Positions 2,573 through 62,253 of a stretch of DNA of 64,000 bases are shown here, piece by piece. The DNA is from Candidatus Binatia bacterium (GTDB taxonomy: Bacteria > Desulfobacterota > Binatia > UBA9968 > JAJDTQ01). The stretch lies in assembly GCA_963422385.1 (NCBI GenBank), contig OY729432.1, positions 818,467 to 882,466 on the forward strand, in the 5' to 3' direction. Within the stretch, counting starts at the first letter, position 1, and each line of letters opens with the position of its first letter. The notes beneath the pieces are model-generated. The model saw only the letters and a list, made by a program, of their open reading frames with translations, made no database searches and was not told the DNA's origin. The translations under genes were made by a program, and so were the position numbers.

Positions 2573-2584
2573 GCACGGAGGATG

Positions 2585-3746: not shown

Positions 3747-4085
3747 TCAGTTTGCGGCGTCGCGCCCGAAATTCGGCAAGAGTTTCGGGCGCCTCTTTGT
3801 CCAATTTCTCGGCACTTCCGTACCGCGGACAGCTTGACTATCGTCGATGACCGTCAATGATGCATTCGGATCCTGAGCGAGAGCGAAGAGTTGCTTTTGA
3901 CTGTAGATACGGATTGGAAAACGCTCTCGAATATCACCCGAACAAATCACGTAGCGATCCTGTTGGAGGGAAGCTGTGCCGTCCAGCAATGCCAAGCAAA
4001 GTCCTTCCAGGTTCGGATGCGTCATCTCCACCCAAGTGAAGCGTCGGCCCAACAGATCGAGGTGGTGACCATCGGAGGCATGCAC
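3747..4085 (-). CDS. Hypothetical protein, possibly the 3' part of a frameshifted gene with 4022..4591
   Basis: ORF with no recognisable motif. It overlaps the upstream ORF by 64 nt in another frame. Confidence 0.2.
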   Translation of the reverse strand: MHASDGHHLDLLGRRFTWVEMTHPNLEGLCLALLDGTASLQQDRYVICSGDIRERFPIRIYSQKQLFALAQDPNASLTVIDDSQAVRGTEVPRNWTKRRPKLLPNFGRDAAN

Positions 4086-4591
4086 CCGAGATATCCCGTG
4101 TCCGATCTCTCCCTTGCTTCCATCAAGCCAGCTTTCGTCGATTTAGTCGGGCGGTCTCGGGCCAGATCCGGACAAGGGCGTTGGGCGATGTTGCCGGCCT
4201 GCAGGTTAGCCAAAGCGTCGGGGACCTCGGCCTTGAGCACCGCGAGCGTGCGACGCAACCAAACATAGAAAAAATTCGATAAATCTGCGTAGCGGACGTT
4301 GTCGTAGTAGAGCGGATCGGTGGAGACCATCTTCGCCGCAGAGGTAAATTGTTTGGATGCGTCAGCTTGGGTAGACGAGCCCCATTCCATGGTAGGTAAC
4401 GTTGCAAGCGACTTGCAAACCCACTCAATACCGCCTGTCCAATTCCCGCTTGCATGGCCAAAGGGAGGAGCTTCCGCGTAATCCACGGTTACGAGGCTGT
4501 CGGTGAGAATGCCGCGTACGGCGGTGTTGGGTTGGAGATCTTCCAGCTTCACGGTCTGATCTCGCTTCCGATCATGGACTGACTCGTTCAT
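4022..4591 (-). CDS. Hypothetical protein
   Basis: 189-aa ORF with no recognisable domain. It lies in the island remnant. Confidence 0.2.
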   Translation of the reverse strand: MNESVHDRKRDQTVKLEDLQPNTAVRGILTDSLVTVDYAEAPPFGHASGNWTGGIEWVCKSLATLPTMEWGSSTQADASKQFTSAAKMVSTDPLYYDNVRYADLSNFFYVWLRRTLAVLKAEVPDALANLQAGNIAQRPCPDLARDRPTKSTKAGLMEARERSDTGYLGCMPPMVTTSICWADASLGWR

Positions 4592-22023: not shown

Positions 22024-22026
22024 CGG

Positions 22027-22626
22027 TCAGGGGCGATGACCGCGGATGAGGGTCATGAACTCGGCGCGAGTCTTCTCCTCCGTGCGGAAGGCTCCCAACA
22101 GGGAACTCGTTATGATGGTGGAGTTCTGTTTCTGAACACCCCGCATGCGCATGCACATGTGCTCTGCCTCCATGACCACCGCCGCCCCCAGGGGTTTGAT
22201 GCGATCCATGATGGTATTCGCGATCTGGTTCGTCAGGCGCTCCTGGACCTGCAGGCGCCGGGCATAGGCGTCCACCAGCCGCGCCAGCTTGGAAACGCCG
22301 ACTATCTTCTTGCGCGGGATGTAGGCGACGTGGGCCTTGCCGTGGAAGGGCAGCATGTGATGCTCACAGAGAGAATAGAAGTCGATGTCCTTCTCGACGA
22401 TCATCTCTTCGTAGTCCTCGGTGAACAGGGCGCCGTTGATGATGGTATCCGGATCCTCCCGATAGCCGCCGGTCAGGAATCTCCAGGCCGTGGCCACTCG
22501 CTCCGGCGTCTTCTCAAGCCCCTCCCGGTCGGGGGCTTCTCCGAGGGACGCGAGGATGGCTCTAACGTGTACTTCCAGGGAATCCGGCGGTTTCTCCGTG
22601 CTCTCGGCAGGCTGCTGAACGGGCAT
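22027..22626 (-). CDS. folE: GTP cyclohydrolase I
   Basis: ...[18 protein letters not shown]...[20 protein letters not shown]...; start taken at MPVQQPAE. The long upstream extension of the ORF lacks homology. Confidence 0.85.
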
Positions 22627-22710
22627 CAAGGGAACGTAACATCTGCCCGAAAGCGGGTCAAATCGACCTCCGCAGCACCGCCGCGCCTTGCCGATAACGA
22701 GAAATCCTGA

Positions 22711-22729
22711 GTATATCTGCGTATATCTG
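22711..22729. promoter_or_regulatory. Tandem direct repeat GTATATCTG x2 in the folE/ptsP divergent intergenic region
   Basis: GAGTATATCTGCGTATATCTGTCC is AT-rich in a GC-rich background. It lies about 40 nt upstream of the ptsP start. Confidence 0.3.
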
Positions 22730-22764
22730 TCCACGAACTCCGGTTCAGACACGGAAATACAGCC

Positions 22765-35810: not shown

Positions 35811-35894
35811 TGCCTTGACCCGCCGCGGGGCTATCGATGACTATCCAGCAGTGAAAAGGCATTTACTGTCGTTCGGCAGTACGATACGGATGGA

Positions 35895-36335
35895 ATGTTC
35901 TGCGTGAACACGGCGTTTATGATATCTGGTCCATCAATCAGATACCTGTGTGCGTTACCAAACTCGAAACTGATGACATGGTTTATGAGCAACACGGCTC
36001 TGAATTCTGGAATGGGTGTGACGCGATGGATCAATGCTTCCGTTGAGGCCATCCCCAAAATATCCGGTGTGCAGCAACGCCCGTTTGTCCGTCGGGTCAA
36101 CTGCATCCTGAAGGCAAAAGCCTCCGACCCGTCAGTGGACACCAGCGAGCGGGAAACGGACATGGACCGGCTGGTGTACGCTCTTTACGGCCTTACCCCG
36201 GAGGAATCAGTTGCTGTCGTAGAGGGAGCCACATGGGTCAAACCAAATCCCGCGGGACACCGGGAACGATGTGCAAAGCGTGCTTTGGCGAGTCGTCCAG
36301 GGTCTGATAACACTGGCGTAAAGCCTCGGAGATGA
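35895..36335 (+). pseudogene. Fragment carrying the C-terminal tail of an N6-adenine DNA methyltransferase (type IIG/BREX PglX-like)
   Basis: ...ILKAKASDPSVDTSERETDMDRLVYALYGLTPEESVAVVEG matches the characteristic C-terminal motif of these MTases. No MTase core is present. The region has lower GC. Confidence 0.4.
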
Positions 36336-36610: not shown

Positions 36611-36700
36611 TGGCGGAGGGGGCGAGATTCGAACTCGCGGTCCACCGTTAAGCGGACGCCGATTTTCAAGACCGGTGCCTTAAACCACTCGGCCACCCCT
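36611..36700 (-). tRNA. tRNA-Ser (anticodon UGA), type II with a long variable arm
   Basis: Minus strand reads GGAGGGGTGGCCGAGTGGTTTAAGGCACCGGTCTTGAAAATCGGCGTCCGCTTAACGGTGGACCGCGAGTTCGAATCTCGCCCCCTCCGCCA. The anticodon loop is CTTGAAA. Confidence 0.85.
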
Positions 36701-36731
36701 CCGTTTTCGGGAAGACCCGGCGCGCCCCGTG

Positions 36732-47440: not shown

Positions 47441-50188
47441 ATGAGCAAGATCGAGATTCAATTCGAGTTGAACGGCGAGACGCGCCGTGCCAACGTGACA
47501 CCCGAGCTGCTGCTGGCCGATTTCCTGCGCCACTCCCTGGGGCTCAAGGGCACCAAGACGAGCTGCGAGGTGGAGGTCTGCGGCGCCTGCACGGTGCTGC
47601 TGGACGGCCGTCCGGTGAGCGCCTGCGCCACCCTCACCCATGAGATCAACGGCCGCTCGCTGGCGACCATCGAAGGTCTCGGCAAGGCGGATGCGATGCA
47701 CGCGGTGCAGGAAGCGTTCTGGGAGGAAGGCGGCTTCGAGTGCGGCTTCTGCACCCCGGGCATGATCATGGCCGTCTGCGCCCTGCTCGACGAGAATCCG
47801 GAGCCCACGAAGGAGGACATCAAGACCGCCCTGGACGGCAATATCTGCCGTTGCACCGGCTACCTCTCCATCATCCGGTCGGTCAACCGGGCCGTCGAGT
47901 TGCTGCACGGGCGGGATGCAGCCCCCTCCCGGCCGGCGGAGGAGCGCCGCCTCGACGGCGCCGCCAAGGTCCGCGGCGAGCCGGTGTACACGGCCGACAT
48001 GACGCACCCGGGCATGCTCTACGGACGGATTCTGCGCAGCCCCCACGCCCACGCCCGGATCCTCGGCATCGACACGGCCGCGGCCGTGTCCCACCCCGGC
48101 GTGGTGGCGGTGCTTACCGCCGCCGACCTGCGGGACATCCCCGCCTACTACGGCCCGCTGGTGAAAGACATTCCCGTGCTGGCCACGGACAAGGTCCGGT
48201 ACGAGGGCGACCTCGTGGCGGCCGTGGCCGCCGAGACTCTGGAGGCGGCCACGGCCGCCACGGCGCTCATTCGCGTGGAGTACGAACCGCTCCCCGGACT
48301 CCTGACCATGGACGACGCACTCCATCCCGATGCCGCCCCGCTCCACGACTACGTGAGCGAGCACGGCACGAATTTTCCCGGATATCCCGGCGTCGACGAC
48401 GAGGCCAGGAAATACGCCAACGTGAGCTTCCACTACGAGCGCGGCAAGGGCAACGTCGACGACGGCTTCACCGCCTCGGAGCGAACCTTCGAGCACACCT
48501 TCGAGTTTCCCAAGATCGCCCACTACTCCATGGAGCCCCAACTCGCCGTGGCCGAGTGGCAGGAGGGCGGCTTCACGGTGTGGTCTTCCACCCAGCACCC
48601 GTTCATCATCCGCCAGGAGCTTGCGGAGATGTTCGGGGTGCCGCCGGAGCGGGTGCGGCTGGTCGTGCCGCTGGTGGGAGGCACCTACGGCAACAAGAAC
48701 CACACCAAGCTCGAGCCGCTGGCGGTGGCGCTGGCGCGCAAGGCCGGACGGCGGGTGTTCCTGCACCTGTCGCTGGAAGAAGAGTCCCGCACGGTGAGCA
48801 AGCCGGCCATGCGAATACGGCTCCGTACCGGTGTGGACCGCGACGGACTGCTGGTAGCGCGGGACTGCCTCGTGCACGTGGACGGCGGCGCCTACTCGGA
48901 CTCGGGTCCGCGAGTCACCCAGAAGGCGGGCTACCGGGCCCCCGGCCCCTACCGGATCCCGCACCTCCGCTCCCACTCGTACACCGTGTACACCAACACC
49001 GTGCCCGCCGGCGCGTTCCGCGGCATGGGCACGCCGCAGGTGGTGTGGGCCTACGAATCGCAGATGGACATGATCGCCCGGGAGATGGGTTGGGACCCGG
49101 TGGAGTTCCGGCTCAGGAATCTCCTCGACAAGGGCGAGGAGTTCGCGCCCGGTGAGACGCCCCTGGACTGCGACATCAAGGAGGGTCTCCTGCGCGCCGC
49201 CAGGGAAATCGGCTGGGGCGCGGAGGAACCGGGCCCCGATTGCGGCATCGGCTTCAGTTGCGGCGTCAAGGATGGCGGCGGCAACTACAAGATCTCATGC
49301 GCGCGGGTGGAGGTCGATGACGCCGGAGGGATCACTCTGCACGAGGGCACGGTGGAAATCGGCCAAGGGTCCCATACGGCCATGGCCCGCATCGCGGGGC
49401 ATGAGCTCGGGGTGCCGCCCACGGCCGTCCACGTGGCGCCCCTGGACACCGATTCGACGCCTTTCGACATGGGCACCTATGCCAGCAGCGCCACCACGGT
49501 CATGGGCCTGGCGGTGCAGAGGGCCGCCCAGGCCGTGCGCGGTCAGCTCATCGAGGCAGCCCGGTCACTGGGCAAGAGCCCCGACTCCGCCGCGACGCTC
49601 GCGGACGGCGAGGTGCGCCTGGGCGAGGTCGCGTTTCCTTTCTCGGCCCTGGTACGACACGTCAAAGGCGCCGGAGGCGTCCTTGTGGGAGAGGGCCGGC
49701 AGGAAAGCAGGCGGGACCCCAACGCGCCCCTCGGCGCCCGGGCGCCGTTCTGGGAAGTGGGATGGGGCGCCGCCAAGGTCCACGTGGACCGGGACACCGG
49801 GGATGTGCGGGTTCTCAAGTACGTCTCCATCGCGGACGCGGGCAAGGCCATCAATCCTCAGCAATGTCACACCCAGGAGCAGGGAGCCTTCCTGCAGGGG
49901 CTCGGACAGGCGCTGTTCGAGGAGACCATCTACGAGAACGGGCTGATGCTGACCCCCGACGCCCTGACCTACCGGCTGCCCAAAATTTCCGACCTGCCGG
50001 ACGACCTGGTCAATATCATCTTCGAGAACGGCAACGGCGCCGGCCCCTACGGCGCCAAGGGACTGGGAGAAAGCGGCATCCTCACCGTCCCGTCGGCCAT
50101 CGCCAACGCCGTGGCCCAAGCGGTGGACGTGCGCATCACCGACTTGCCGGTGACCGGCGAGAAGATCTGGCGCGCGCTGAAGAAGTGA
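47441..50188 (+). CDS. Single-chain aldehyde oxidoreductase (xanthine dehydrogenase family) with N-terminal 2x[2Fe-2S] fused to the Mo-pterin domains and no FAD domain (Desulfovibrio Mop-like)
   Basis: The N-terminal 155 aa have plant-type (CEVEVCGAC) and helical (CGFC...CRCTGY) 2Fe-2S motifs. The remainder is an XDH/CoxL-like Mo-binding large subunit. 915 aa. Confidence 0.8.
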   Translation: MSKIEIQFELNGETRRANVTPELLLADFLRHSLGLKGTKTSCEVEVCGACTVLLDGRPVSACATLTHEINGRSLATIEGLGKADAMHAVQEAFWEEGGFECGFCTPGMIMAVCALLDENPEPTKEDIKTALDGNICRCTGYLSIIRSVNRAVELLHGRDAAPSRPAEERRLDGAAKVRGEPVYTADMTHPGMLYGRILRSPHAHARILGIDTAAAVSHPGVVAVLTAADLRDIPAYYGPLVKDIPVLATDKVRYEGDLVAAVAAETLEAATAATALIRVEYEPLPGLLTMDDALHPDAAPLHDYVSEHGTNFPGYPGVDDEARKYANVSFHYERGKGNVDDGFTASERTFEHTFEFPKIAHYSMEPQLAVAEWQEGGFTVWSSTQHPFIIRQELAEMFGVPPERVRLVVPLVGGTYGNKNHTKLEPLAVALARKAGRRVFLHLSLEEESRTVSKPAMRIRLRTGVDRDGLLVARDCLVHVDGGAYSDSGPRVTQKAGYRAPGPYRIPHLRSHSYTVYTNTVPAGAFRGMGTPQVVWAYESQMDMIAREMGWDPVEFRLRNLLDKGEEFAPGETPLDCDIKEGLLRAAREIGWGAEEPGPDCGIGFSCGVKDGGGNYKISCARVEVDDAGGITLHEGTVEIGQGSHTAMARIAGHELGVPPTAVHVAPLDTDSTPFDMGTYASSATTVMGLAVQRAAQAVRGQLIEAARSLGKSPDSAATLADGEVRLGEVAFPFSALVRHVKGAGGVLVGEGRQESRRDPNAPLGARAPFWEVGWGAAKVHVDRDTGDVRVLKYVSIADAGKAINPQQCHTQEQGAFLQGLGQALFEETIYENGLMLTPDALTYRLPKISDLPDDLVNIIFENGNGAGPYGAKGLGESGILTVPSAIANAVAQAVDVRITDLPVTGEKIWRALKK

Positions 50189-51717: not shown

Positions 51718-51939
51718 TTGCGCGTGATAAAGGTCGACCCCCACAAATGCGACGGCTGCGGCATCTGCGTCTACGACTGCGGCGCCGATGTCTTCCGCTT
51801 CACCAACAAGAAGGACAAGGTCTTTCCCTTCGGCAACAAGTACTGCGTCAACTGCTTCCTGTGCGAGCTCGTCTGCCCCGAAGACGCCATCGAGGTGGTG
51901 CTGCGGCCCAAGATGAAGCGCGCCGCCGCAAGCTCCTGA
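51718..51939 (+). CDS. 2x[4Fe-4S] ferredoxin
   Basis: CDGCGICVYDCG and CVNCFLCELVCP motifs. 73 aa. Confidence 0.75.
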   Translation: MRVIKVDPHKCDGCGICVYDCGADVFRFTNKKDKVFPFGNKYCVNCFLCELVCPEDAIEVVLRPKMKRAAASS

Positions 51940-51947
51940 GCGGACAC

Positions 51948-53624
51948 ATGACCGACTCCATCCCGACCACCGACTGCGACGTCCTCATCATCGGCGGCGG
52001 GTTGGCTGCCTGCATGGCGGCGCTGGAGGCGTCCAAGCGCAACATGGACGTGGTGCTGGTGGACAAGGGACGGCTCGGGCGAAGCGGCTCGAGCCCTACC
52101 TCCGGCGGGGTCCCGCAGGCAGCCTTCGGCCACGCCGACCCCCGCGACAGCAAGGAGATGCACTTCAAGGACACCATCGTCGGGGGCGACTTCATCCCGA
52201 ACCAGAAGATTGTCCGGGCCATCGTCAACGAGGTCACCGATCGGGTCATCGAGCTGGAGGAGATGGGGCTGCACTTCAAGAAGACGCCAGACGGCCGGAA
52301 ATTCCATCAGGAGAAACGTCTGGGCAGCTCCTACGCCCGCAGTTGCCCGCCGGTGGGCGGCAGCGTGGGGATGTTGGGCTCGCTGCGGAAAGAAGTATTC
52401 AACCGCGAGGTCCAGGTGCGCCAGTGGACCATGATCACGAAGCTACTGCGGCAGAACGGCCGGATCACCGGAGCCTTCGGCATCAACGTCCGGACCGGCG
52501 CTTACCAAGCATACCGCGCCCGGGCCGTGGTGCTGGCCGGGGGCAGCGCCATCGCCATCCAGAAGTACACCAGCGCCAACTTCCTGACCACGGGCGACGC
52601 CTACGTCGCGGCCTTCGAAATCGGCGCGCCCTTGGCCAACCTCGAGTTCCTGGAGTTCACGCTGATCCCGGCGCCCGGCGGCGAAGCCATCTCCATGGCC
52701 GGCCTGTCCCCTTTCACCAGCAAGGGCGGCCGCTTCTTCAACTCGCTGGGCGAACGGTTCCTGGAGCGGTACGATCCCGAGCGGCTGGAAGGCACGACCC
52801 GGGCCATCCTGGTGGGCGCCACCTACAAGGAAATGTTCGAGGGACGCGGCCCGGTCTACCTGGACCCGTCCTACATCCCGGACGAGAAGTGGGATGACGA
52901 AATCAGCTTCGAGTATTCCCCCAAGCTTGGCAAGGCCGGCGTCAACTGCCGCTCCGACCGGTTCGAGTGGGTGCCGGCGCTGCACACCTTCCTGGGCGGG
53001 CTTGACATCAACGAGCGGTGCGAGGTCCCAGGGGTGGAGGGTCTCTACGCGTCGGGTGAATCGGCCACCGGAACCCACGGCTCCAACCGGCTGTCCGGCA
53101 ACGCCATCGCCAGCGCCTTTGCGCTGGGCGCCCGGTCGGGCAAGTTCGCGGCCATCTACGGGGCGGACGCAGAGTTGGGCGAGGTGGACCCGGCGGAGAC
53201 CGCCGCGGAGGTCGCGAGGATCGAGGCCTTCAAGGGTGACGAAGGGCTGGATCCCACCGAGCTGCAACAGGAGATCAAGGAGATCGCGTGGGAGAGCACC
53301 GGCGTCGTGCGGAACGAGCGCGGGCTCACCACCGGACTGGAGCGCTTCCAGGAGATCCGCCGCGAAAAGGTCCCCCGGCTCAAGGCGGACAACATCCGCG
53401 CCCTCATCAAGTCCCTCGAATGCTCCAACCTTTCCTGGGTAGGCGAGATGGTCGCCCGCTGCGCCCTGGAACGCAAGGAATCCCGCGGCCAGCACACACG
53501 GGACGACTACCCGGAGAGGGACGACAAGAACTGCCTCAACTGGATCAAGGTGGAGAAGGACGGCGATCGGGTGAAGCCGATCATCAAGCCGATTCCGTTC
53601 GACGGGGCGGAGTTGAAACCCTGA
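51948..53624 (+). CDS. FAD-binding flavoprotein of the succinate dehydrogenase / fumarate reductase / AprA superfamily
   Basis: DVLIIGGGLAACMAA dinucleotide fold and the C-terminal RKESRGQHTRDDYPERDD signature. 558 aa. Starts 9 nt after the ferredoxin stop. Confidence 0.7.
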   Translation: MTDSIPTTDCDVLIIGGGLAACMAALEASKRNMDVVLVDKGRLGRSGSSPTSGGVPQAAFGHADPRDSKEMHFKDTIVGGDFIPNQKIVRAIVNEVTDRVIELEEMGLHFKKTPDGRKFHQEKRLGSSYARSCPPVGGSVGMLGSLRKEVFNREVQVRQWTMITKLLRQNGRITGAFGINVRTGAYQAYRARAVVLAGGSAIAIQKYTSANFLTTGDAYVAAFEIGAPLANLEFLEFTLIPAPGGEAISMAGLSPFTSKGGRFFNSLGERFLERYDPERLEGTTRAILVGATYKEMFEGRGPVYLDPSYIPDEKWDDEISFEYSPKLGKAGVNCRSDRFEWVPALHTFLGGLDINERCEVPGVEGLYASGESATGTHGSNRLSGNAIASAFALGARSGKFAAIYGADAELGEVDPAETAAEVARIEAFKGDEGLDPTELQQEIKEIAWESTGVVRNERGLTTGLERFQEIRREKVPRLKADNIRALIKSLECSNLSWVGEMVARCALERKESRGQHTRDDYPERDDKNCLNWIKVEKDGDRVKPIIKPIPFDGAELKP

Positions 53625-53672: not shown

Positions 53673-53962
53673 GTGTACGACTTCGAGTGGCATCCCGCCA
53701 AAGCCGCCAGCAACTTGCGCAAACACGGGCTTGATTTTAATCTCGCAGCCACGGTGTCCGAGGACCGACTCGCATCGACGGTGCGCGACGAAGACCACAG
53801 CGAGTCCGAGGACCGGTGGGTGACCGTAGGCGAATCCCGGAACACTGAGTTGTGGTTGTGTGTTACACTTCACGTCAAACCGACGACCGCACGACGGTGC
53901 GGATTATTTCGGCGCGACGGGCCACACCCAACGAACGACGCCAGTACGAGTCAGGCAAATGA
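53673..53962 (+). CDS. brnT: BrnT-family (DUF497) RNase toxin, reading frame interrupted by a shift in a GT repeat
   Basis: Frame 1 reads MYDFEWHPAKAASNLRKHGLDFNLAATVSEDRLASTVRDEDHSESEDRWVTVGESRNTE. At about 53846-53866 the BrnT-conserved end ...VVVVCYTSRQTDDRTTVRIISARRATPNERRQYESGK* continues in a different frame and stops at 53960-53962. The stop overlaps the next gene's ATG (ATGA). Confidence 0.6.
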
Positions 53963-56900
53963 AACGAGAGTACGACTTTTCCAAAGGTGAACGCGGCAAG
54001 TTCTACCGCCGGAACGCCAAGCTGAATATCCCACGCTCCACCGACAAGCCTGATTGGGCCGGGGCCGAAGGCCATCTTTGCGATTTCATGACCGCGGAGA
54101 CGGAAAAGACCCTCCGGGCCTACGGGGAACAACCGAGTCTGGTGACCGAGCATGCCAACCACGAACATGACACGGCCCACGGCGGCTATGCCCACCGGCA
54201 GCTCTTCGAGCTTGTCCAGAACAGCGCGGATGCTCTCGCCAACGCTCCCGATGGCAAAGGCATCCTGGTTCGCCTCACCGACGACTACCTCTATTGTGCC
54301 GATGACGGCAGAGCGATCGACGAGCCAGGTATCCAGGCGTTGATGTTCTCCCACATGTCGAGCAAACGAAACACCAGCGAGATCGGGCGGTTTGGGCTTG
54401 GCTTCAAGTCAGTGCTGGGAGTCACGAACGCCCCGGAGTTCTTCAGTCGGCCCGGTTCCTTTCGTTTCGACAAGAACCACGCGGCCAAGCGCATCGCCAA
54501 GGTCGCGCAAGCGGAACGCTACCCGGTGCTCCGGTTACCCATCCCCATCGATGCCCGTGAAGTGTCGGAGGACGACGAAGACCTTCGTGAACTCATGACC
54601 TGGGCAACTAACATCGTGCGGCTTCCGCTCAAACCGGGTGCTAGCGAGGACTTCGCTAAACAGGTTCAGGATTTCCCGCCAGAGTTCCTGCTGTTCGTCG
54701 ACCATGTCCGCTTTCTGAGCCTGGAACACAGGGAGCGAACGCGGGACTTCGTCCTCCAGAGATTAGACGGCGAGCTTCGACTCGACACGGACGAGGGATC
54801 TTCGCGCTGGAAATGCTTCAAGACCTACCACAGACTCTCTGTTGAAGCCCTCAAAGACCGGCGCTCGCTCGACGACAGCGGTGACGTGCCGATCTGGTGG
54901 GCGGCACCCCTGGACCGATTGGACTACCCAGGCTACTACTGGCACTTCTTCCCAACGAAGACGGCAAGTCTTCTGGCAGGTATTCTGAACGCACCCTGGA
55001 AGACCAACGAAGATCGCCAGAACCTGTTGCCGGGACCATACAACGACGAGTTGATCGATGTCGCGACGAGCATGGTGGCCAAGCGGTTGCCCGAGCTTGC
55101 CACTGACCAAGACCCCGCGTTGCACTTGGATGCCCTGCCGCGTCGGCATGAAGCCGGCGACACCGAGCACAGTGAGCGCCTCCGTGATCACTTGTATGAG
55201 AAACTGCGAAAAGGCCCCGTTGTCCCCGATCAGACCGGAACTTTGCGCAAAATCCAGGACATTTCCTATGCGCCCACAGCTCTGACTCAAGATCAAACGG
55301 GAGAAGCGTCGCTCAAGAAGTGGGCAGGCTTTGATCTGCGTCCAACGGATTGGCTTCACCACAGCACACTGACGCGTAATCGAATGGCCAAGGTCAACCA
55401 ACTTTTCGCCCAGGAACTTTTCGCCCAGGAACCTGCGTGGCAACAAGAGGCGCCTCGCGCATCCATAGCTAAGTGGTTGGAAGCTCTCATAGTAGAACGC
55501 GAGGGTCAAGCGACGATCATAGCCTCGAAGACGGCTCTTCAGGCGGCGGCAGCGATACCCGAGCGAAAGAGGACAGGAGAGCCGCTTGGCAACATTCTCC
55601 TGACGCAAAGCGACGACTGGTACGCGCCTGACCCGGAAAGCGTGTTCTTACCATCGTTCGATGATAGCGAAGGAGTTGACGACCGCTTGGTTCACAGGGC
55701 GCTGGTGTCTGATTCCGAGACTGCTGCGGCTCTGAACGTGCTGGGTATTAAGCACGTATCTCCCGAAGGCCGCTTTCGATCCCTTGCTAGGACATTGCTT
55801 ACTCGATGCACAAGCGAGCCGGACGAGACGCTGTGGGCCGACTTCTGGAGCGCGTCGCGTGCAGTGGAAACGGATCAGGCCTACATGATCGTCAAGAAAG
55901 TGACCGACCACGCATTGTCGATGACGACCGCCACATCCTGGCACGAGCAGGTCGTCATGACCATCAAGAAAGAGACCGACAAGGGACACGTCGATTGGAA
56001 CCCGTCGATTCATGCGCGTGCCCGGTCGGGCGATTGGCAACCCCTTCATTCGGTTCTGTTGCCTGGCGATATCGTGCCGAACGAAGGCGGCCGTGACCGT
56101 CGCGTCACAGTGGACACCGAGTTCCATGGTGCGGACTTGAAATTGCTCGACAGACTGGGGGCGACAGCCACGCCGAGGCAAGACCAGGATTTGTCGACCG
56201 ACCCTTGTTTCAAGTCGTTTTTGGTCGAATGCCGCCTTAAGTTCGTCGCCCGAGACCTTCCGAGGGACCCGCACTGGGGCAAACTGAATTTTGGTTCGAC
56301 AACAGGAAGTGGGCCGCTGCAAGTTCTGCCACTGCTCTCGAACGAAGGCAAGGCATGCTATACGGACGCCTTGTTGTCGCTGGAGACTTCCTTTGTCCGG
56401 TGGACAATGCGCCACGAAACCCAGAGCATCTACCCGCCACTCCCGTGTCAGAGTCCTGCCATCGCGTTGCTGCGCAAGCATGGCCGTATCCGTTGCGCTG
56501 GTGAATTCGTACCTTTAGCGGATGTGCTCGGTCCTCAACCGGCCAACCCTGCCGCACTGCAAGCTTTGCTGTCACACCGGATGGCGAACCGGATCAGGGA
56601 AGCCTTCGACCTTGCAGAACCGGTTGTGGAACCCGTCGGCGAAGAGGACTCGGTTCCTTTGACGGATGTGTGGCCCGGTTTGGCGCCGTACCTGACCGCG
56701 CACTCAAGGACATTCTCTCTCATCCGTTGCCAGCAACTTGCTGCTGGCGGCGGTACAAGTGGAGCCGAATGCATGCGGGTCGATGCCAGCATATACTTGG
56801 CTGGCACGGGTGATGAGGATTGCGACCTGCGGTTGGTTTCGCAGGAGCTCGGAATCGACCTGAATGACAACCAGCTTGAAGAGATCCTGCGATACGTTAC

Positions 56901-58521
56901 GCCGCAGGAAGTCGAGGCACAACGCGCGGCTATCCGGGAACTGACAACGGACGCCGAGAGGCTGTTCCACGCAGTAGGCGACGTCCGTCTGCGTTCATAT
57001 TTACCCGGATCGCTCTTGGCCGTGCTTGAGAGCGGCCGTGCGCCGCTGACTGGCGTTGAACTTGCGGAAGCGGCCATGGCCACATATCACACGGCGGCTC
57101 TCATGGAATATCGCCGGGCCTTGGATCACTTGGCCCCGCCCACGCGTTGGGCAGGGTCGCAGCCCGCGGTTGGCTTCGTCCAATCACTTGGATTCTCCGC
57201 GGAGTGGGCCGGACAACGGAGTTCACGCCATCCGCCGTTCCTGGAGGTAGAAGGCCCGTACTCGCTTCCGGAACTGCACGACTACCAGAAGTGCATCGTT
57301 GCCAGAGTGCGAGAGATGCTCTGCAATGGACGTATGGACGGTGGCGGGCGGCGCGGCATGATCAGTCTCCCAACCGGTTCGGGCAAGACACGCATCGCGG
57401 TGCAGGCCATCGTCGAGGCCATTTGCAGCGGTTTCACCGGCGGTGTCCTTTGGGTCGCAGACCGTGACGAATTGTGCGAACAGGCCGTGGAAGCATGGCG
57501 GCAGGTCTGGTCGAGCGTTGGCGCGGAAGGGAAGCGCCTGCGGGTTTCCAGGATGTGGGCCGGGCAGCCCCGACCTCTGCCGACAAGCGACCTCCACGTC
57601 ATTGTGGCGACGATACAGACGCTCAACGCCAAGCTGTCGAAGCAACCCGAAGATTACCGGTTCCTGGCTGACTTCAACTTGGTCGTTTTCGATGAGGCGC
57701 ATCGTTCCGTCGCGCCGACCTACACCTCTGTCATGCAAGAGATCGGACTGACCCGCTGGCAGCGAGGAAATGAACCCTTCCTGCTTGGCCTCACCGCGAC
57801 GCCTTACAGAGGGCACGATGAAGAGGAAACCGCCAGGCTGGTGCGTCGTTACGGCGGCAATCGCCTGGACGCCGGGGCGTTCGCCAACGACGAACCCTCA
57901 GAGGTCATTGGCGAGTTGCAGGAAATGAGCGTACTCGCGCACGCCGACCACCAGACCATCGAAGGCGGCGACTTCTCCCTGAGCCAGAATGAGTTGACGG
58001 AAATGCAGGCAATGCCCCATCCCGCATGGCTGCCACGCAGCATGGAGGACCGCATTGCCCGGGACGCGGACCGAACCAAACGCATTGTCGGTGCCTACAA
58101 GACCTTCGTTGGTAATGTTCACCGGGAGCAGTGGCCCACGCTGATCTTTGCCACTTCCGTGGAACATGCCAAGACGGTGGCAGCGCTGTTGAGCTCCGCA
58201 GGCGTCAGGTCCAGAGCCGTGAGTGGAGGGACAGAGACATCCGTTCGCCGAGACATTGTCGAGCGGTTTCGAGCGGGCCAGATCGACGTTCTCGTGAACT
58301 ACGGTGTATTCCGCGAAGGATTCGATGCGCCCAGGACACGGGTCATCATCGTGGCGCGGCCGGTCTACAGCCCGAACCTCTATTTCCAGATGATCGGCAG
58401 AGGGTTGCGGGGGCCGAAAAACGGAGGCAATGATCGCTGCCTCATCGTCAACGTGCGCGACAACATCGACAACTTCAACAAGGCGTTGGCCTTTTCCGAA
58501 CTGGATTGGCTCTGGGGGTAA
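53959..58521 (+). CDS. Large multidomain protein: BrnA-like N-terminal peptide, Hsp90/sacsin-type GHKL ATPase, about 900 aa unassigned, C-terminal SF2 DEAH helicase
   Basis: MKREYDFSKGERGKFY resembles the BrnA antitoxin N-terminus. Bergerat motifs follow: ELVQNSADA, YCADDGRAID and GRFGLGFKSV. The helicase motifs are I LPTGSGKT, II VFDEAH, III LTATP, V LVNYGVFREGFDAP and VI QMIGRGLRG. The ORF-track start is an upstream GTG at 53860. The ATG at 53959 is coupled to the brnT stop. Confidence 0.75.
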   Translation: MKREYDFSKGERGKFYRRNAKLNIPRSTDKPDWAGAEGHLCDFMTAETEKTLRAYGEQPSLVTEHANHEHDTAHGGYAHRQLFELVQNSADALANAPDGKGILVRLTDDYLYCADDGRAIDEPGIQALMFSHMSSKRNTSEIGRFGLGFKSVLGVTNAPEFFSRPGSFRFDKNHAAKRIAKVAQAERYPVLRLPIPIDAREVSEDDEDLRELMTWATNIVRLPLKPGASEDFAKQVQDFPPEFLLFVDHVRFLSLEHRERTRDFVLQRLDGELRLDTDEGSSRWKCFKTYHRLSVEALKDRRSLDDSGDVPIWWAAPLDRLDYPGYYWHFFPTKTASLLAGILNAPWKTNEDRQNLLPGPYNDELIDVATSMVAKRLPELATDQDPALHLDALPRRHEAGDTEHSERLRDHLYEKLRKGPVVPDQTGTLRKIQDISYAPTALTQDQTGEASLKKWAGFDLRPTDWLHHSTLTRNRMAKVNQLFAQELFAQEPAWQQEAPRASIAKWLEALIVEREGQATIIASKTALQAAAAIPERKRTGEPLGNILLTQSDDWYAPDPESVFLPSFDDSEGVDDRLVHRALVSDSETAAALNVLGIKHVSPEGRFRSLARTLLTRCTSEPDETLWADFWSASRAVETDQAYMIVKKVTDHALSMTTATSWHEQVVMTIKKETDKGHVDWNPSIHARARSGDWQPLHSVLLPGDIVPNEGGRDRRVTVDTEFHGADLKLLDRLGATATPRQDQDLSTDPCFKSFLVECRLKFVARDLPRDPHWGKLNFGSTTGSGPLQVLPLLSNEGKACYTDALLSLETSFVRWTMRHETQSIYPPLPCQSPAIALLRKHGRIRCAGEFVPLADVLGPQPANPAALQALLSHRMANRIREAFDLAEPVVEPVGEEDSVPLTDVWPGLAPYLTAHSRTFSLIRCQQLAAGGGTSGAECMRVDASIYLAGTGDEDCDLRLVSQELGIDLNDNQLEEILRYVTPQEVEAQRAAIRELTTDAERLFHAVGDVRLRSYLPGSLLAVLESGRAPLTGVELAEAAMATYHTAALMEYRRALDHLAPPTRWAGSQPAVGFVQSLGFSAEWAGQRSSRHPPFLEVEGPYSLPELHDYQKCIVARVREMLCNGRMDGGGRRGMISLPTGSGKTRIAVQAIVEAICSGFTGGVLWVADRDELCEQAVEAWRQVWSSVGAEGKRLRVSRMWAGQPRPLPTSDLHVIVATIQTLNAKLSKQPEDYRFLADFNLVVFDEAHRSVAPTYTSVMQEIGLTRWQRGNEPFLLGLTATPYRGHDEEETARLVRRYGGNRLDAGAFANDEPSEVIGELQEMSVLAHADHQTIEGGDFSLSQNELTEMQAMPHPAWLPRSMEDRIARDADRTKRIVGAYKTFVGNVHREQWPTLIFATSVEHAKTVAALLSSAGVRSRAVSGGTETSVRRDIVERFRAGQIDVLVNYGVFREGFDAPRTRVIIVARPVYSPNLYFQMIGRGLRGPKNGGNDRCLIVNVRDNIDNFNKALAFSELDWLWG

Positions 58522-58619: not shown

Positions 58620-59627
58620 TCACACCCGCGGCAGCACCGCCGCGCCGAACAGATCCATGGCCGCCAGGATGTCCTTCTGCTCCAACCCCGGAGTCCAGTC
58701 GAATCGCAGCAACAGCAGATCCGGCTTGAGGGATTCCTCGTAGGAGCGGATCTCCTCGATGCAGTCCACGGGGGAACCCAGGATGAAGCGATGGCGCGCC
58801 AGGCGGTCGAAGTCCCAGGTGAGTTCGTCGGGGTTGCTCATGGCATCGTCCTGGCCCCACCTGACGTAGACGTCGCGGTAGGGCTTGTCGAGGCAGGGGC
58901 GGGCCTTGGCCACGGCATCTTCCCGGGTGGGAGCCACGAAGCACTCCCGGACCATGACGACGGCGCCAGCGCCCGGCTTGCCGGTATCAGCCCACGCCTG
59001 GCGGAACAGCGCGATCTGGTCCCGCAGCTCCTCGATGGCCGAGTGGGGTGCCACCAGCCAGCCGTCGCTGATGCGGGCGGCGCGCCGGACTCCCTTGTCG
59101 CCGTTGGCCGCGATCCATACGGGTGGACGCGGCTGCTGTAGCGGTCGTGGCGCAATCGTTACGTCCTTCAACTCGAAGGCCTTGCCCGAGAACGAGACGT
59201 GCTCCTCCGTCCACAACCACTGGACGATCTCGACGCCCTCCACGAAACGGTGAAATCGCTGCTGCTTCGTCAGGTTGAAGGCATCCAGCTCCTGCTGCCG
59301 GTAACCGAGCCCGAAGGAGAAGAAGGAACGCCCTTCGTTCATGACGTCGATGGTGGCCAGCTCCTTGGCGATGATCACCGGGTCGTGGAGGCCGAGCAGC
59401 GTGGTGGCCGTGCCCACGCCGGCCCGCTTGGCTTCGGCGCAAAGCCGTCCCAGGAGCGGCACCTGATGAAGCCGCTGAAAGCCGGGGATGTTGTAGTGCT
59501 GGCCCATGGTGATGGCTTCGAAGCCGGCGTCGTCGGCGACCCGTGTCTGCTCCGCCAACGTGGGTAGAAGGCTCTCGGTGGGCTTGTCGATGGAAACCTG
59601 CGGATTGAACTGGATACCGAATTTCAT
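58620..59627 (-). CDS. LLM-class flavin/F420-dependent oxidoreductase
   Basis: MKFGIQFNPQ... luciferase-like TIM barrel. Starts at an internal Met of the 58620..60338 ORF, preceded by GGAG. Confidence 0.75.
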   Translation of the reverse strand: MKFGIQFNPQVSIDKPTESLLPTLAEQTRVADDAGFEAITMGQHYNIPGFQRLHQVPLLGRLCAEAKRAGVGTATTLLGLHDPVIIAKELATIDVMNEGRSFFSFGLGYRQQELDAFNLTKQQRFHRFVEGVEIVQWLWTEEHVSFSGKAFELKDVTIAPRPLQQPRPPVWIAANGDKGVRRAARISDGWLVAPHSAIEELRDQIALFRQAWADTGKPGAGAVVMVRECFVAPTREDAVAKARPCLDKPYRDVYVRWGQDDAMSNPDELTWDFDRLARHRFILGSPVDCIEEIRSYEESLKPDLLLLRFDWTPGLEQKDILAAMDLFGAAVLPRV

Positions 59628-61890
59628 GGTGTGCTCCTGTGTCTGTCGTGTCACGCGCTCCTCAACCCTTTCGGTTGAGGGCCCTCCAGACGCGCTCGGG
59701 CGTGAGGGGCAGCTCGCGGATCCCCACTCCCATGGCCCGAGCCAAGGCGTTGGCCACCGCCGGCGCCACCGCGACGATACCGGTTCGCCCATGCCCTTGG
59801 CGCCCCAAGGCCCCGGCCCATCGGCGTTTTCCATCAACGCGACCTCGAAACGGCGCGGCATGTCGGTGAAAGCCGGTACCCGGTAGTCGATGAGGTTGGG
59901 ATTGAGTGACTGGCCATTGTCGTAGAGCAGACTCTCACACAGGATGTGGCCCAGACCCATCATGGCCGCGTCCTCGGCCTGGAGCCGGTTGATGGCCTTG
60001 CCGACGTCGGCGACGATGGCGTAGTGTGGTACCCGTAGCTTGTTCGTCTCCTCGTCCACGATCACCGCAGCAGCCCCCATGCCGGTCTCCCAGAACACCG
60101 GGAAGTGCGAGGGAATCCTGCCGCCGGCACGCACGTAGCCACGGCCGATGCACTCGCCTCCGGGCATGGCGAAGTACGCCCGCACGACGGCGCCGTAGTC
60201 CATGCGTTGCCCGCCGGCCTTGGCCCGCCCGTCCTCCAGGGTCACGTTGCACGGGTCGCAGCCCATGACCTCGGCGGCGGCCTGCCGAACCTGCTCAAGG
60301 AGATCTTCGGCAGCGAACTTGACCGCCGTGCCCATCACCGTCGTGGAGCGGCTGGCGCCGGTGGAATGGCGTCACGTCGGTATCCGTGGCCCACATGACG
60401 ATTCGTTCCGGCGGAAGGCGAAGCCCCTGACCGCCACCTGACTCAGCACGGTCCGGGCCCCCTGCTCCACCTCGGTGCTGCCGGCCATGGGCACCACACT
60501 GCCGTCGCTCAGGAGACGCAGGATGGCGATGGATACGGGCATGGCCTCGGAGTCGGTGACGCCCACGGCGAGGCCCAGGTTGTCTCCCGGCGGACCCTGG
60601 TTCTCATCCCGGTCCACCATGAAGGCCAACTTTCGCAGGTCCATGTGCAGGTCCGCCCATGGGCTTGGCACCAAGCTTCAGGGGTTCGTTGCGGCGTAGC
60701 AGGTTCCGGAGGCGGAAAGCCAGCGGGTCGAGTTCCAGCCCCCGGCGGCGTCGTCCATGTGGGACTCCAGCGGGAAGATCGCATGGAGTCCGCCGATGGA
60801 TCGCATGGAGCCGGCAGGCGCGGTGTTGGTGTACACGGCGTAGACGCCGATGCGGTAATGAGGGATCCCGTAAGGGCCGTGGACCCGTGTGGCCACCCGC
60901 GGGCCGTTGTCGACGTAGACCACGGTGTCCAGGTGCACCTGCGCCTCACGCGCCACCACGGTACCGTCCCGTTGAACCCTGGTCCTCACGCGACAACGGG
61001 CCGAATGGCGCCGGATCGTCAGCATGGACTCGGACACGCTCTGGGCCAGACGGACCGGACGCCCGCCCGCGGTCCGGGCCAACGCCACCGCCAAGGGCTC
61101 GATCTTGAAATACGACTTGCCGCCGAAAGCGCCGCCGACGTAGGGCACCGTCACCCGCACGTTGGGCATCGGCACCCTGAACATCTGGGCGATCTCGGCG
61201 CGGACGAGGAACGGGTGAGCGGAGGAGGTCCAGAGCGAGATCTCGTCCCCCTCGAACCGGGCCACCGCGGTGTGAGGCTCGAGGGAATAGTGGCAGATCA
61301 TCGGGAACTCGAAGGTATCCTCGAACACCGCGTCGGCCTGCTGGAAGCCCGTGGCGACGTCGCCGGACTCGAGCTACTCGTGGTGACAGACGTTCCGCAG
61401 AGCTTCCTCCTCGACCGCGGGCAGATCATGGTACTACCCTGCCGAGGCATTGGCGTCATGCAGCACCGGAGCTTCCGGCGCCAATGCCTGATCCATGTCG
61501 GCCGCCATCGGAAGCTCTCGGTAACACACGCGCACCGAGGCCAGCGCATCTTCGGCGATATCGCCGCGCTCGGCCGCCACCGCCGCCACTGGCTCGCCGA
61601 CATAGCGTACCCGGTCCGTGGCAATGAGCGGCCGGTCCCGCAGACAGTGGCCGTAGTAGGGATCGATGTCCTTGACGGACTCACGGGTCAGAACGCCGTG
61701 AGCCCCTCGGCGTCGCGCACGTCGATGCTTTCGATCAAGGCGTGGGGAAACGGGCTCTGGAGCACCCGTCCCTCCAGTAGCCCCGGGAACTCCAGGTCGG
61801 CCGTGAACCGGGCCTTCCCGGTGACCTTCTCCACCCCTTCCGCGGCGGATGAATCGGCCGACGGTGGTGAAATGCGCCATCTGGCCGTAT
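59628..61890 (-). pseudogene. Xanthine-dehydrogenase-family Mo-binding subunit, a paralog of the Mop-like gene, disrupted
   Basis: Pieces collinear with the 47441 gene appear in ORFs 61688..62422 (N-terminus ...AEGVEKVTGKARF..., different frame), 61434..61880, 60678..61328 and the N-terminal third of 58620..60338. The last three share a frame but are separated by in-frame TAG and TGA codons. At least one frameshift lies near the N-terminus. Confidence 0.55.
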
Positions 61891-61899
61891 TCGGGCGGA

Positions 61900-62253
61900 C
61901 TACTTCTTGTAGTAGCGCAACTCGAAGGTGATGCAGCCGTTGGGGCTCTTGTAGGGCCCGTGCTTCATGCCCGGCGGGCGGCAGCCGTACATGCCCTTGG
62001 TGAACTCCTGGTTGAGCCGGGTGTCGATCAAGCTGCCTTCGACGATGATGACCTCTTCCCAGAAGTCGTGCTCGATGGTCTCGGTGGTCTCCACGCCGGC
62101 CGCGAAGTTGACCATGCGGGTGTAATTGCCGGTTTCCTTGTCCTCGCTCAGGATCTTTTCGGTGATCCCTTCGGCCGCGGCGCCCGAGTCGGCGCCCACG
62201 GGGCGCCAGCCGATGGTGTCGGTATCGAAAAACTCTCTTTCTTCCTTCGGCAT
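61900..62253 (-). CDS. Cupin-domain protein
   Basis: 117 aa with a cupin beta-barrel pattern (...TIEHDFWEEVIIVEGSLID...). Confidence 0.5.
   Translation of the reverse strand: MPKEEREFFDTDTIGWRPVGADSGAAAEGITEKILSEDKETGNYTRMVNFAAGVETTETIEHDFWEEVIIVEGSLIDTRLNQEFTKGMYGCRPPGMKHGPYKSPNGCITFELRYYKK

What the first reader, a model, noticed from the sequence alone, without database searches (positions are those of the whole stretch)
53843..53962. brnT is split between two frames inside a GTTGTGGTTGTGTGTT repeat
- The conserved BrnT C-terminus (LVVVVCYTSRQTDDRTTVRIISARRATPNERRQYE) is encoded in a different frame from the N-terminal 58 aa.
- The switch maps to a GT-rich slippery run (GAGTTGTGGTTGTGTGTTAC).
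- This could be a sequencing/assembly indel, an inactivating mutation of a toxin whose large-protein partner is retained, or a programmed frameshift / slipped-strand switch controlling toxin dosage.
- Each alternative changes how the locus should be interpreted.
Basis: seen in the sequence. Interest (0 to 1): 0.55.

Follow-up and report, generated by a model that had tools for sequence, protein, structure and literature searches.

The report
One-base deletion breaks a brnT toxin gene
A small RNase toxin gene (brnT) lacks one T that every related genome has, so it is most likely a recently broken gene rather than a programmed frameshift. Its partner is unusual: a 1520-residue ATPase-helicase that starts with a short antitoxin-like peptide.

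Summary
brnT starts at GTG 53673 and reads normally for 60 codons. Its last 35 codons, including the RIISAR motif, lie in the -1 frame and end at TGA 53960-62. That stop overlaps the ATG of the next gene.

Six distinct syntenic orthologous loci all carry one uninterrupted 96-codon brnT. L084 reads GAGTTGTTGGTTGTGTGTT where the window reads GAGTTG-TGGTTGTGTGTT, so one T is missing next to 53853.

I found no slippery heptamer, no nearby homopolymer, no unusual downstream RNA structure and no real repeat tract. The deletion itself created the (GTTGTG)2 repeat. Programmed frameshifting and phase variation are therefore rejected.

The segment after the shift is still under purifying selection (Ka/Ks 0.14), so the lesion is recent or an assembly error. 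A real mutation is favoured for two reasons:
- brnT is independently broken in 7 of 30 other loci of this module.
- A multi-lesion pseudogene lies 1.2 kb from the module, while the other neighbouring genes are intact.

The wider context is more interesting than the frameshift. brnT is strictly coupled to a conserved N-terminal peptide (MKxEYDFSKGERGKFYR) on a large sacsin-like GHKL ATPase plus SF2 helicase. Relatives of that protein carry other antitoxin fragments, each with a matching toxin gene upstream.

The parts
53673..53852 (+). brnT 5' part: GTG start and codons 1-60 (MYDFEWHP...GESRNTEL)
   Evidence: Translation. Pfam BrnT_toxin profile positions 1-59. The GTG start is conserved in the syntenic orthologs.
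53853..53854 (+). Site of the one-base deletion: 'TG' is what remains of codon 61 (TTG in the orthologs); one T is missing
   Evidence: L084 reads GAGTTGTTGGTTGTGTGTT and the window reads GAGTTG-TGGTTGTGTGTT. L001, L003, L083 and L085 also have the extra base.
53855..53962 (+). brnT 3' part in the -1 frame: codons 62-96 (VVCYTSRQTDDRTTVRIISARRATPNERRQYESGK) plus the TGA stop
   Evidence: Translation. The repaired protein matches the full Pfam profile and 7vd7_A. Ka/Ks of this part against L001 is 0.14.
53846..53848 (+). TGA in the 3'-part frame: any frame change must occur downstream of it, leaving only about 53849-53856 as the possible shift window
   Evidence: translation and the sequence.
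53757..53759 (+). TCC (Ser29) at the conserved hydrophobic 'ATVF.D' position: Phe in the 6 syntenic orthologs and most other brnT copies, Leu in a few
   Evidence: A possible second damaging change; this is inference.
53988..53990 (+). TGA where the unshifted frame ends, giving an aberrant 105-aa product. Ribosomes now run 29 nt past the large gene's ATG instead of stopping in the ATGA overlap
53959..53962 (+). ATGA stop/start overlap between brnT (3' frame) and the large gene, conserved across the family
53959..54033 (+). N-terminal peptide of the large protein (MKREYDFSKGERGKFYRRNAKLNIP), antitoxin-like and conserved
   Evidence: Conserved in 103 of 120 listed homologs. It co-occurs with brnT (Fisher p = 2.5e-13). 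The top PDB hit of its profile is the antitoxin fragment 7vd7_B (E 0.15).
53959..58521 (+). Large gene, 1520 aa, intact. Sacsin-like GHKL ATPase at residues ~80-161 (54196-54441); ResIII/Helicase_C SF2 helicase at residues ~1105-1484 (57271-58410)
   Evidence: Pfam, NCBIfam and PADLOC. Full-length single-frame alignment to the L001 ortholog at 77.5% identity. Ka/Ks 0.24.

Best explanation
brnT in this genome carries a genuine, recent, non-programmed one-base deletion. One T of the TTG-TTG pair encoding Leu60-Leu61 is missing, next to 53853.

Consequences for the toxin (inferred):
- Translation from GTG 53673 gives 60 correct residues and then 45 unrelated ones.
- The product lacks the conserved C-terminal strand and RIISAR...E..Y motif of the RelE-like BrnT fold, so the RNase toxin is most likely dead.
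- Ribosomes also no longer terminate in the ATGA overlap that normally couples brnT to the next gene.

What the locus is (inferred): brnT is not part of a classic BrnT/BrnA pair. Its partner is an intact 1520-residue protein with a sacsin-like GHKL ATPase and an SF2 helicase. The first ~25 residues of that protein are a conserved peptide resembling the toxin-binding N-terminal part of BrnA. The likely logic is that the peptide holds BrnT inactive on the large protein until that protein is triggered.

Most relatives of the large protein carry no toxin at all, so the toxin is a dispensable add-on. Losing it is tolerated and has happened repeatedly.

Shown: the deletion, its absence from orthologs, the lack of recoding signals, the toxin-peptide co-occurrence and the repeated decay.
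Inferred: that the lesion is real rather than an assembly error, that the truncated product is inactive, and that the peptide binds BrnT.
For: - Six distinct syntenic loci have an intact 96-codon brnT and one more base at exactly this spot: L001/L002, L003, L048, L083, L084 and L085. All share the order FAD_binding_2 gene, brnT, large gene, luciferase-like gene.
- No slippery heptamer and no homopolymer. Downstream RNA fold z = -0.89. No tandem repeat.
- Among 30 other loci carrying the peptide-type module, brnT is disrupted in 7, by unrelated lesions, while the large gene stays open. L052 has a 1-nt insertion about 12 nt further downstream. L004 and L015 have lost the 5' part. L061 and L072 are nearly gone. 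L066 has an internal deletion that leaves 'VERSGMYESDV*'. L069 has a disrupted N-terminus.
- The Mo-hydroxylase gene at 59665-61843 (-) has 4 in-frame stops and at least 2 changes of reading frame, plus two locally scrambled stretches, relative to the intact 755-aa ortholog. Two of the stops are TAG codons within well-aligned stretches, so they look like substitutions. The FAD, luciferase-like, cupin and large genes are all full length. The genome therefore does accumulate pseudogenes, and the assembly is not generally indel-ridden.
- Ser replaces a conserved Phe/Leu at codon 29.
- Toxin-peptide coupling: 25 loci with peptide and brnT hit, 4 with peptide only (all with brnT remnants), 3 with brnT but no regex match, 47 with neither; p = 2.5e-13. 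Of the 3, L019 is a start-codon artefact of the regex, and L058 and L082 carry a longer BrnA N-half (E 4e-14 to a canonical BrnA).
- The solved complex 7vd7 pairs a BrnT homolog with a 44-residue N-terminal antitoxin fragment ending SEAVRGKFFRP. That fragment is the best PDB match of the peptide profile.
Against: - No reads and no second genome of the same species were available (P0001 is a singleton cluster; no exact-pattern hit in JGI metagenomes). A consensus indel error therefore cannot be excluded.
- The out-of-frame C-part shows no decay (Ka/Ks 0.14, no stops). That is what an error, or a very young mutation, would look like.
- The peptide's similarity to BrnA is weak at sequence level (E 0.15 against PDB, no Pfam or NCBIfam hit).
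- The peptide is not detectably less conserved where brnT is broken (p = 0.11).
Confidence: 0.72

Rival explanations
1. Sequencing or assembly artefact: the organism has an intact brnT, and the consensus dropped one T from a TT dinucleotide.
For: - Apart from the Ser29 change, brnT looks functional. All other conserved motifs are present, there are no stops in either part, and Ka/Ks after the shift is 0.14.
- The genome appears to be a long-read metagenome-assembled chromosome (single 3.95-Mb contig).
- Another such MAG (L052) also shows a lone 1-nt indel in brnT.
Against: - The site is not a homopolymer run, which is where long-read consensus errors concentrate.
- About 11 kb of flanking coding sequence aligns full length and in frame with orthologs.
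- The only other broken gene nearby has stop codons within otherwise well-aligned stretches as well as frame changes, so it is a true pseudogene.
- Real, gross brnT decay is common in sister loci.
Confidence: 0.2
2. Programmed recoding or a switch: -1 ribosomal frameshifting, transcriptional slippage or slipped-strand phase variation at the GT-rich run tunes the toxin dose.
For: - The two parts are otherwise intact, and the shift lies inside a GT-rich stretch containing (GTTGTG)2.
- A 6-bp GC hairpin exists at 53887-53902.
Against: - There is no X_XXY_YYZ heptamer.
- There is no A/T run for transcriptional slippage.
- The hairpin starts about 33 nt downstream rather than 5-9 nt, and the region's fold is not unusual (z = -0.89).
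- A two-copy hexamer cannot change frame by unit gain or loss, and Tandem Repeats Finder sees no array.
- No ortholog has the shift. The only other frameshifted copy (L052) is shifted in the opposite direction at a different position.
Confidence: 0.03
3. Split toxin: the N-fragment and a separately initiated C-fragment (GTG 53852, 36 aa) reassemble into an active or attenuated BrnT.
For: An in-frame GTG at 53852 opens the C-part ORF.
Against: - No recognisable ribosome-binding site precedes it (read directly from the sequence).
- No split arrangement exists in any relative.
- The N-fragment carries 45 unrelated residues.
Confidence: 0.02

Closest known systems
BrnT/BrnA type II toxin-antitoxin system (Brucella abortus, PDB 3U97; BrnT-like toxin with N-terminal antitoxin fragment, PDB 7VD7; plasmid brnTA pairs)
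   Same: - The toxin is a clear BrnT (PF04365, 84.6 bits once repaired; E 9e-14 to 7vd7_A).
- The toxin gene comes first and overlaps the next gene, as in annotated plasmid brnTA pairs.
- The partner starts with motifs found in BrnA N-terminal parts: E-Y-D-F-S, as in the Leptolyngbya BrnA that begins MRDEYDFS, and RGKFYR, compare RGKFFRP in 7vd7_B.
   Different: - There is no stand-alone BrnA and no ribbon-helix-helix/BrnA_antitoxin (PF14384) domain.
- The partner is a 1520-residue GHKL ATPase-helicase.
- The toxin gene is frameshifted here.
Tiamat defence system (TmtA; PADLOC models)
   Same: Residues 42-452 of the large protein match the TmtA model PDLC03964 (E 1.9e-53). Both share the sacsin-like GHKL ATPase region.
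   Different: - Only the first ~423 of 1538 profile positions match.
- The C-terminal half here is an SF2 helicase (ResIII + Helicase_C).
- As far as I know, no toxin partner or antitoxin-like peptide has been described for Tiamat (own knowledge; nothing found in the held literature).
BrnT-like toxins encoded immediately upstream of large defence proteins (RtcR-associated CoCoNuT type IV restriction systems; PMC11090510)
   Same: A BrnT-like RelE-family RNase gene sits directly upstream of, and in the same direction as, a large helicase-containing defence-type gene. The authors interpret it as a cell-death or dormancy effector.
   Different: The partner architecture differs (McrBC/CoCoNuT versus sacsin-GHKL + SF2 helicase). 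No fused antitoxin peptide is described there.
Decayed toxin genes in chromosomal toxin-antitoxin loci
   Same: The lesion is a single disabling indel in the toxin while the partner is kept. Sister loci show truncations and deletions of the toxin.
   Different: The retained partner is not a small antitoxin but a large enzyme. That enzyme also exists widely without any toxin (47 of 79 loci).

Membership tests
BrnT toxin (Pfam PF04365) | One ORF matching the whole BrnT profile, including the C-terminal RIISAR...E..Y segment | tested here: not met
   The native frame-a ORF covers profile positions 1-59 of 77 (55.3 bits). The gene is BrnT by descent, but as written it does not encode a complete BrnT.
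BrnT toxin (Pfam PF04365) | Ribonuclease activity and growth inhibition | not testable with these tools
   Needs expression of the native and repaired alleles.
BrnT/BrnA type II TA pair | Downstream small antitoxin with a BrnA_antitoxin/RHH domain (PF14384 or PF12441) | tested here: not met
   The downstream gene is 1520 aa. It has no BrnA or CopG hit, even for the N-terminal 58 residues at E up to 10. Canonical plasmid BrnA proteins do hit PF14384.
BrnT/BrnA type II TA pair | Partner carries the toxin-binding N-terminal BrnA segment | tested here: inconclusive
   The peptide profile's best PDB hit is the antitoxin fragment 7vd7_B, but at E 0.15 over 11 residues. The co-occurrence with brnT is strong. 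The L058/L082 variants carry an unambiguous BrnA N-half (E 4e-14).
Programmed -1 ribosomal frameshift site | Slippery heptamer X_XXY_YYZ in the zero frame | tested here: not met
   None anywhere in brnT.
Programmed -1 ribosomal frameshift site | Stimulatory structure 5-9 nt downstream | tested here: not met
   The fold of 53846-53935 has z = -0.89. The only hairpin, at 53887-53902, begins about 33 nt downstream.
Programmed -1 ribosomal frameshift site | Two-frame arrangement conserved in orthologs | tested here: not met
   None of the 6 distinct syntenic loci has it, and 23 copies of the peptide-type module in total are single-frame.
Phase-variable contingency locus (slipped-strand mispairing) | Long homopolymer, or a multi-copy repeat whose unit is not a multiple of 3 | tested here: not met
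   There are only two copies of a hexamer. Tandem Repeats Finder finds nothing and there is no homopolymer of 4 or more at the site.
Phase-variable contingency locus (slipped-strand mispairing) | Length polymorphism within a population | not testable with these tools
   No reads and no conspecific genome. The exact-pattern scan of JGI metagenomes found nothing.
Tiamat (TmtA) | Full-length match to a TmtA model | tested here: not met
   Only profile positions 11-423 of 1538 are matched, by residues 42-452. The C-terminal helicase matches other families (ResIII, Helicase_C; PbeA, DpdF and REase models).

The most novel reading that the evidence does not exclude
The frameshift marks one decaying copy of an undescribed modular system. 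A giant sacsin-like GHKL ATPase plus SF2 helicase is spread by horizontal transfer through sponge-associated bacteria of at least ten phyla. Its N-terminus carries only the toxin-binding fragment of an antitoxin, and it is paired with the matching toxin gene immediately upstream.

At least three versions exist:
- BrnT with a ~25-residue EYDFS...RGKFYR peptide.
- BrnT with the N-terminal half of BrnA.
- A Gp49/HigB-like toxin with the N-terminal half of its PF21716 antidote.

In this reading the large enzyme acts as a sensor that holds and releases interchangeable toxins, and the toxins are frequently lost.
Probability: 0.45. Interest if true: 0.6.

Novelty: new variant of a known kind. Interest (0 to 1): 0.3.

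Why it matters
The frameshift itself matters mainly for annotation. The locus should be recorded as a brnT pseudogene, or flagged as a possible consensus error. It should not be recorded as a recoding site, and the large gene should not be called a BrnA antitoxin.

The context matters more. It suggests that toxin-antitoxin parts can be split up and reused. Only the toxin-binding piece of an antitoxin is grafted onto a large ATPase-helicase of defence type, and different toxin families are plugged into the same scaffold. If confirmed, this would give a testable example of how abortive-infection effectors are recruited to, and shed from, a sensor protein. It would also explain an abundant, unnamed gene family in sponge symbionts.

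Tried and rejected
- Programmed frameshifting, transcriptional slippage and phase variation were rejected.
- I looked for the source genome or conspecific sequences to test for polymorphism. The look-up of encoding contigs had no record for P0001. Its cluster is a singleton without names. An exact-pattern scan of JGI metagenomes allowing either T count found nothing.
- A tblastn search of plasmids with the 29-residue peptide found nothing. BLASTP of the peptide against a short BrnA gave no alignment, and against a canonical BrnA only a 6-residue match. Pfam and NCBIfam gave no hit for the peptide.
- I tested whether the peptide decays where brnT is broken. The result was not significant.
- A viral-contig scan found one distant full-length relative and otherwise only helicase-domain matches, so the module is not typically phage-borne.
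- Literature searches found no description of this architecture: BrnT + helicase; Tiamat/TmtA; sacsin + helicase + TA; antitoxin fusions; 7VD7. The Heaton 2012 BrnTA paper is not held.
- MAFFT first placed the gap about 20 nt upstream of the true site. Codon-level comparison and the closer orthologs corrected this.

Full report
**1. The observation**

The sequence at 53673-53990 was read and translated in all three forward frames.
- From GTG 53673 the frame reads MYDFEWHPAKAASNLRKHGLDFNLAATVSEDRLASTVRDEDHSESEDRWVTVGESRNTEL. It then runs on as unrelated sequence to TGA 53988-90.
- The -1 (= +2) frame is closed by TGA 53846-48. It then reads VVVVCYTSRQTDDRTTVRIISARRATPNERRQYESGK* and ends at TGA 53960-62.
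- That stop overlaps ATG 53959 of the next gene, giving an ATGA overlap.

Pfam BrnT_toxin matches the unshifted ORF only over profile positions 1-59 of 77 (55.3 bits). A one-base-repaired protein matches positions 1-77 (84.6 bits). The repaired protein also aligns end to end with the solved toxin 7vd7_A (E 9e-14).

**2. What the lesion is**

The large downstream protein has more than 1800 homologs. Its closest relatives lie in the same genomic context as the window: Fer4 gene, FAD_binding_2 gene, a ~335-nt gap, the large gene, then a luciferase-like gene on the other strand.

In all six distinct syntenic loci (L001/L002, L003, L083, L084, L085 and the Candidatus Binatia MAG L048), the gap holds one uninterrupted 96-codon brnT with a GTG start. 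L084 has the same local sequence as the window except for one extra T: GAGTTGTTGGTTGTGTGTT against GAGTTG-TGGTTGTGTGTT. The window has lost one T of the second TTG codon, next to 53853.

It is not a pre-existing repeat tract, and Tandem Repeats Finder reports nothing there.

**3. Is it programmed?**

The evidence says no.
- brnT contains no X_XXY_YYZ heptamer, and there is no homopolymer of four or more near the site.
- The TGA at 53846-48 confines any shift to about 53849-53856. There the codons G_UUG_UGG offer poor re-pairing (inference from the sequence).
- The downstream 90 nt fold no better than shuffled controls (z = -0.89).
- The single GC hairpin, at 53887-53902, begins about 33 nt away.
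- A two-copy hexamer cannot switch frame by gaining or losing a unit.
- No ortholog shares the arrangement.
- The only other frameshifted copy found (L052) has a 1-nt insertion (CAC AACC for CAC ACC) about 12 nt further downstream, which shifts the frame in the opposite direction.

**4. Real mutation or assembly error?**

This cannot be settled without reads.

For an error or a very young lesion:
- Codons after the shift are still under purifying selection against L001 and L003 (Ka/Ks 0.14; whole gene 0.23).
- Neither part contains stops.

For a real lesion:
- The site is not a homopolymer.
- Flanking genes align full length and in frame with their orthologs: FAD 94.8%, cupin 95.7%, luciferase-like 89%, large gene 77.5%.
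- The Mo-hydroxylase gene at 59665-61843 (-) is an unmistakable pseudogene. It has four in-frame stops and at least two changes of reading frame, plus two locally scrambled stretches, against an intact 755-aa ortholog. Two of the stops are TAG codons within well-aligned stretches.
- Codon 29 is Ser where the syntenic orthologs have Phe and other copies have Phe or Leu.
- Toxin decay is common in this family. Among 30 other loci of the same module type, seven have a broken brnT. The lesions include 5' truncation (L004, L015), near-complete loss (L061, L072), internal deletion (L066) and N-terminal disruption (L069). The large gene remains open in all of them.

I put a real deletion at about 0.72, an artefact at about 0.2 and recoding at about 0.03.

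**5. What the locus really is**

The downstream gene (53959-58521) encodes an intact 1520-residue protein.
- It has a sacsin-type GHKL ATPase domain (NCBIfam NF047352, 62 bits).
- Residues 42-452 match PADLOC TmtA/Tiamat models at E 1.9e-53, but cover only the first quarter of that model.
- It has a C-terminal SF2 helicase (ResIII, Helicase_C).
- Its GC3 (0.69) is well below that of neighbouring genes (~0.83).
- Its synonymous divergence from L001 (Ks 0.50; brnT 0.71) is two- to four-fold that of the Fer4, FAD and cupin flanks (0.13-0.25) and close to that of the luciferase-like gene (0.44). brnT is closest to L084/L085 while the large gene is closest to L001. The module therefore evolves fast or recombines.

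The protein is not BrnA. It has no RHH/BrnA_antitoxin domain. Its first ~25 residues (MKxEYDFSKGERG[KR]F[YF]R..A.L.LP) are nevertheless conserved in 103 of 120 listed homologs.

**6. The peptide and the toxin go together**

In 79 loci from genomes of many phyla, mostly sponge-symbiont MAGs, the counts were:
- peptide and brnT both present: 25;
- peptide without a brnT hit: 4, all with brnT remnants at the ATGA;
- brnT without the peptide by regex: 3;
- neither: 47.

Fisher p = 2.5e-13. Of the three exceptions, L019 merely has a non-ATG start. L058 and L082 carry a longer N-terminal extension that matches residues 12-58 of a canonical Agrobacterium BrnA (E 4e-14), which is the part before the DNA-binding domain.

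The solved complex 7vd7 pairs a BrnT homolog with exactly such a 44-residue N-terminal antitoxin fragment, ending SEAVRGKFFRP. That fragment is the top PDB hit of the peptide profile (SkgeRGrFyrp; E 0.15, not significant on its own). A Leptolyngbya plasmid BrnA begins MRDEYDFS.

In L024 and L030 the same large protein instead begins with the N-terminal half of a PF21716 'addiction module antidote' (26.3 bits). It is preceded by a Gp49/HigB-like toxin ORF (PF05973, E 1.4e-6).

The scaffold therefore carries interchangeable antitoxin fragments, each with its cognate toxin upstream. About 60% of loci carry neither.

**7. Most likely mechanism**

- Shown: architecture, co-occurrence and repeated toxin loss.
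- Inferred: the N-terminal peptide binds and neutralises BrnT on the large protein. ATP- or nucleic-acid-dependent events in the GHKL/helicase body release or activate the RNase. The large protein also works without a toxin, so toxin loss is tolerated.
- In this genome the toxin arm is disabled. The frameshift also removes termination at the ATGA overlap, which may lower translational coupling to the large gene (inference).
- A test for relaxed conservation of the peptide where brnT is broken was not significant. This fits recent losses or an additional role for the peptide.

**8. Comparison with what is known, and novelty**

A frameshifted toxin gene is ordinary. The locus resembles BrnTA in toxin identity, gene order and overlap. 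It fails the defining test of a small RHH antitoxin, and it is not a full TmtA.

BrnT-like genes directly upstream of large defence proteins have been noted for CoCoNuT systems (PMC11090510). I found no description of antitoxin fragments fused to a sacsin-GHKL helicase in the held literature. That is absence of evidence in a limited library, not proof of novelty. The family is essentially absent from viral contigs.

**9. Verdict**

- Observation: confirmed.
- Assembly error: not excluded.

Interest in the frameshift itself is low. The module it belongs to deserves a separate look.

Noticed in passing
window 59665-61843 (-): The Mo-hydroxylase gene (Ald_Xan_dh_C/MoCoBD) is a multi-lesion pseudogene. 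It has in-frame stops at 61434-36 (TAG), 61374-76 (TAG), 60678-80 (TGA) and 60372-74 (TGA), at least two changes of reading frame plus two locally scrambled stretches, and small deletions, relative to the intact 755-aa ortholog in L001. A 44%-identical paralog at 47441-50188 (+) is intact.
   Followed up: yes
window 624-4591: tRNA-Ala(cgc) at 624-699 (+) abuts a low-GC3 stretch (0.62-0.71 against ~0.83 elsewhere). The stretch holds an HTH_3 + Peptidase_M78 (IrrE-like) gene (1147-2253, -) and a short Schlafen/AlbA_2 ORF (3217-3588, -). It looks like an integrated island.
   Followed up: partly
L024:2533-3100 and L030:2532-3100; L058:2634-3150 and L082:153-700: Relatives of the large protein carry other N-terminal antitoxin fragments with matching toxin genes directly upstream. 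L024/L030 have a Gp49/HigB-like toxin plus the N-half of a PF21716 antidote. L058/L082 have a divergent BrnT plus the N-half of a canonical BrnA (E 4e-14). Several Chloroflexota copies have a Lys/Arg-rich N-extension instead.
   Followed up: partly
window 53756-53767 and 53804-53815; 53849-53860: A perfect 12-nt direct repeat (GTCCGAGGACCG) occurs 48 nt apart inside brnT. Its first copy contains the unusual Phe29-to-Ser change. The T deletion likewise creates a perfect (GTTGTG)2. Both lesions could be templated by nearby quasi-repeats, but this is speculative.
   Followed up: no
window 53673-58521 versus flanks 51724-53624 and 58620-62253: The brnT and large-gene module is much more diverged from syntenic relatives (Ks 0.5-0.7; 68-83% aa identity) than most flanking genes (Ks 0.13-0.25; 84-97% aa identity; the luciferase-like gene is intermediate at Ks 0.44). 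brnT is closest to L084/L085 while the large gene is closest to L001. This suggests fast evolution or allelic recombination of the module in place.
   Followed up: partly
L004-L082 (genome-contig hits): The large-protein family is concentrated in sponge-associated MAGs of many phyla, including Binatia, Acidobacteriota, Chloroflexota, Gemmatimonadota, Alpha- and Gammaproteobacteria, Spirochaetia, Latescibacterota and Acidimicrobiia. This points to horizontal spread within that habitat. Synteny with L048 suggests the window comes from a Binatia-like symbiont.
   Followed up: partly
L066:2960-3004; L072:2980-3004; L004:2900-3004: Where brnT has been deleted, its last few codons (…YES..*, GTACGAGTC…ATGA) are often retained just upstream of the large gene's ATG. 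The 3' end of brnT may therefore double as the large gene's translation-initiation region.
   Followed up: no
window 22024-22764 and 35811-36331: These are the two longest stretches without a confident ORF in my rough gene map (741 and 521 nt). tRNA-Ser(tga) lies just beyond the second, at 36611-36702 (-). There were no Rfam hits other than the tRNAs.
   Followed up: no
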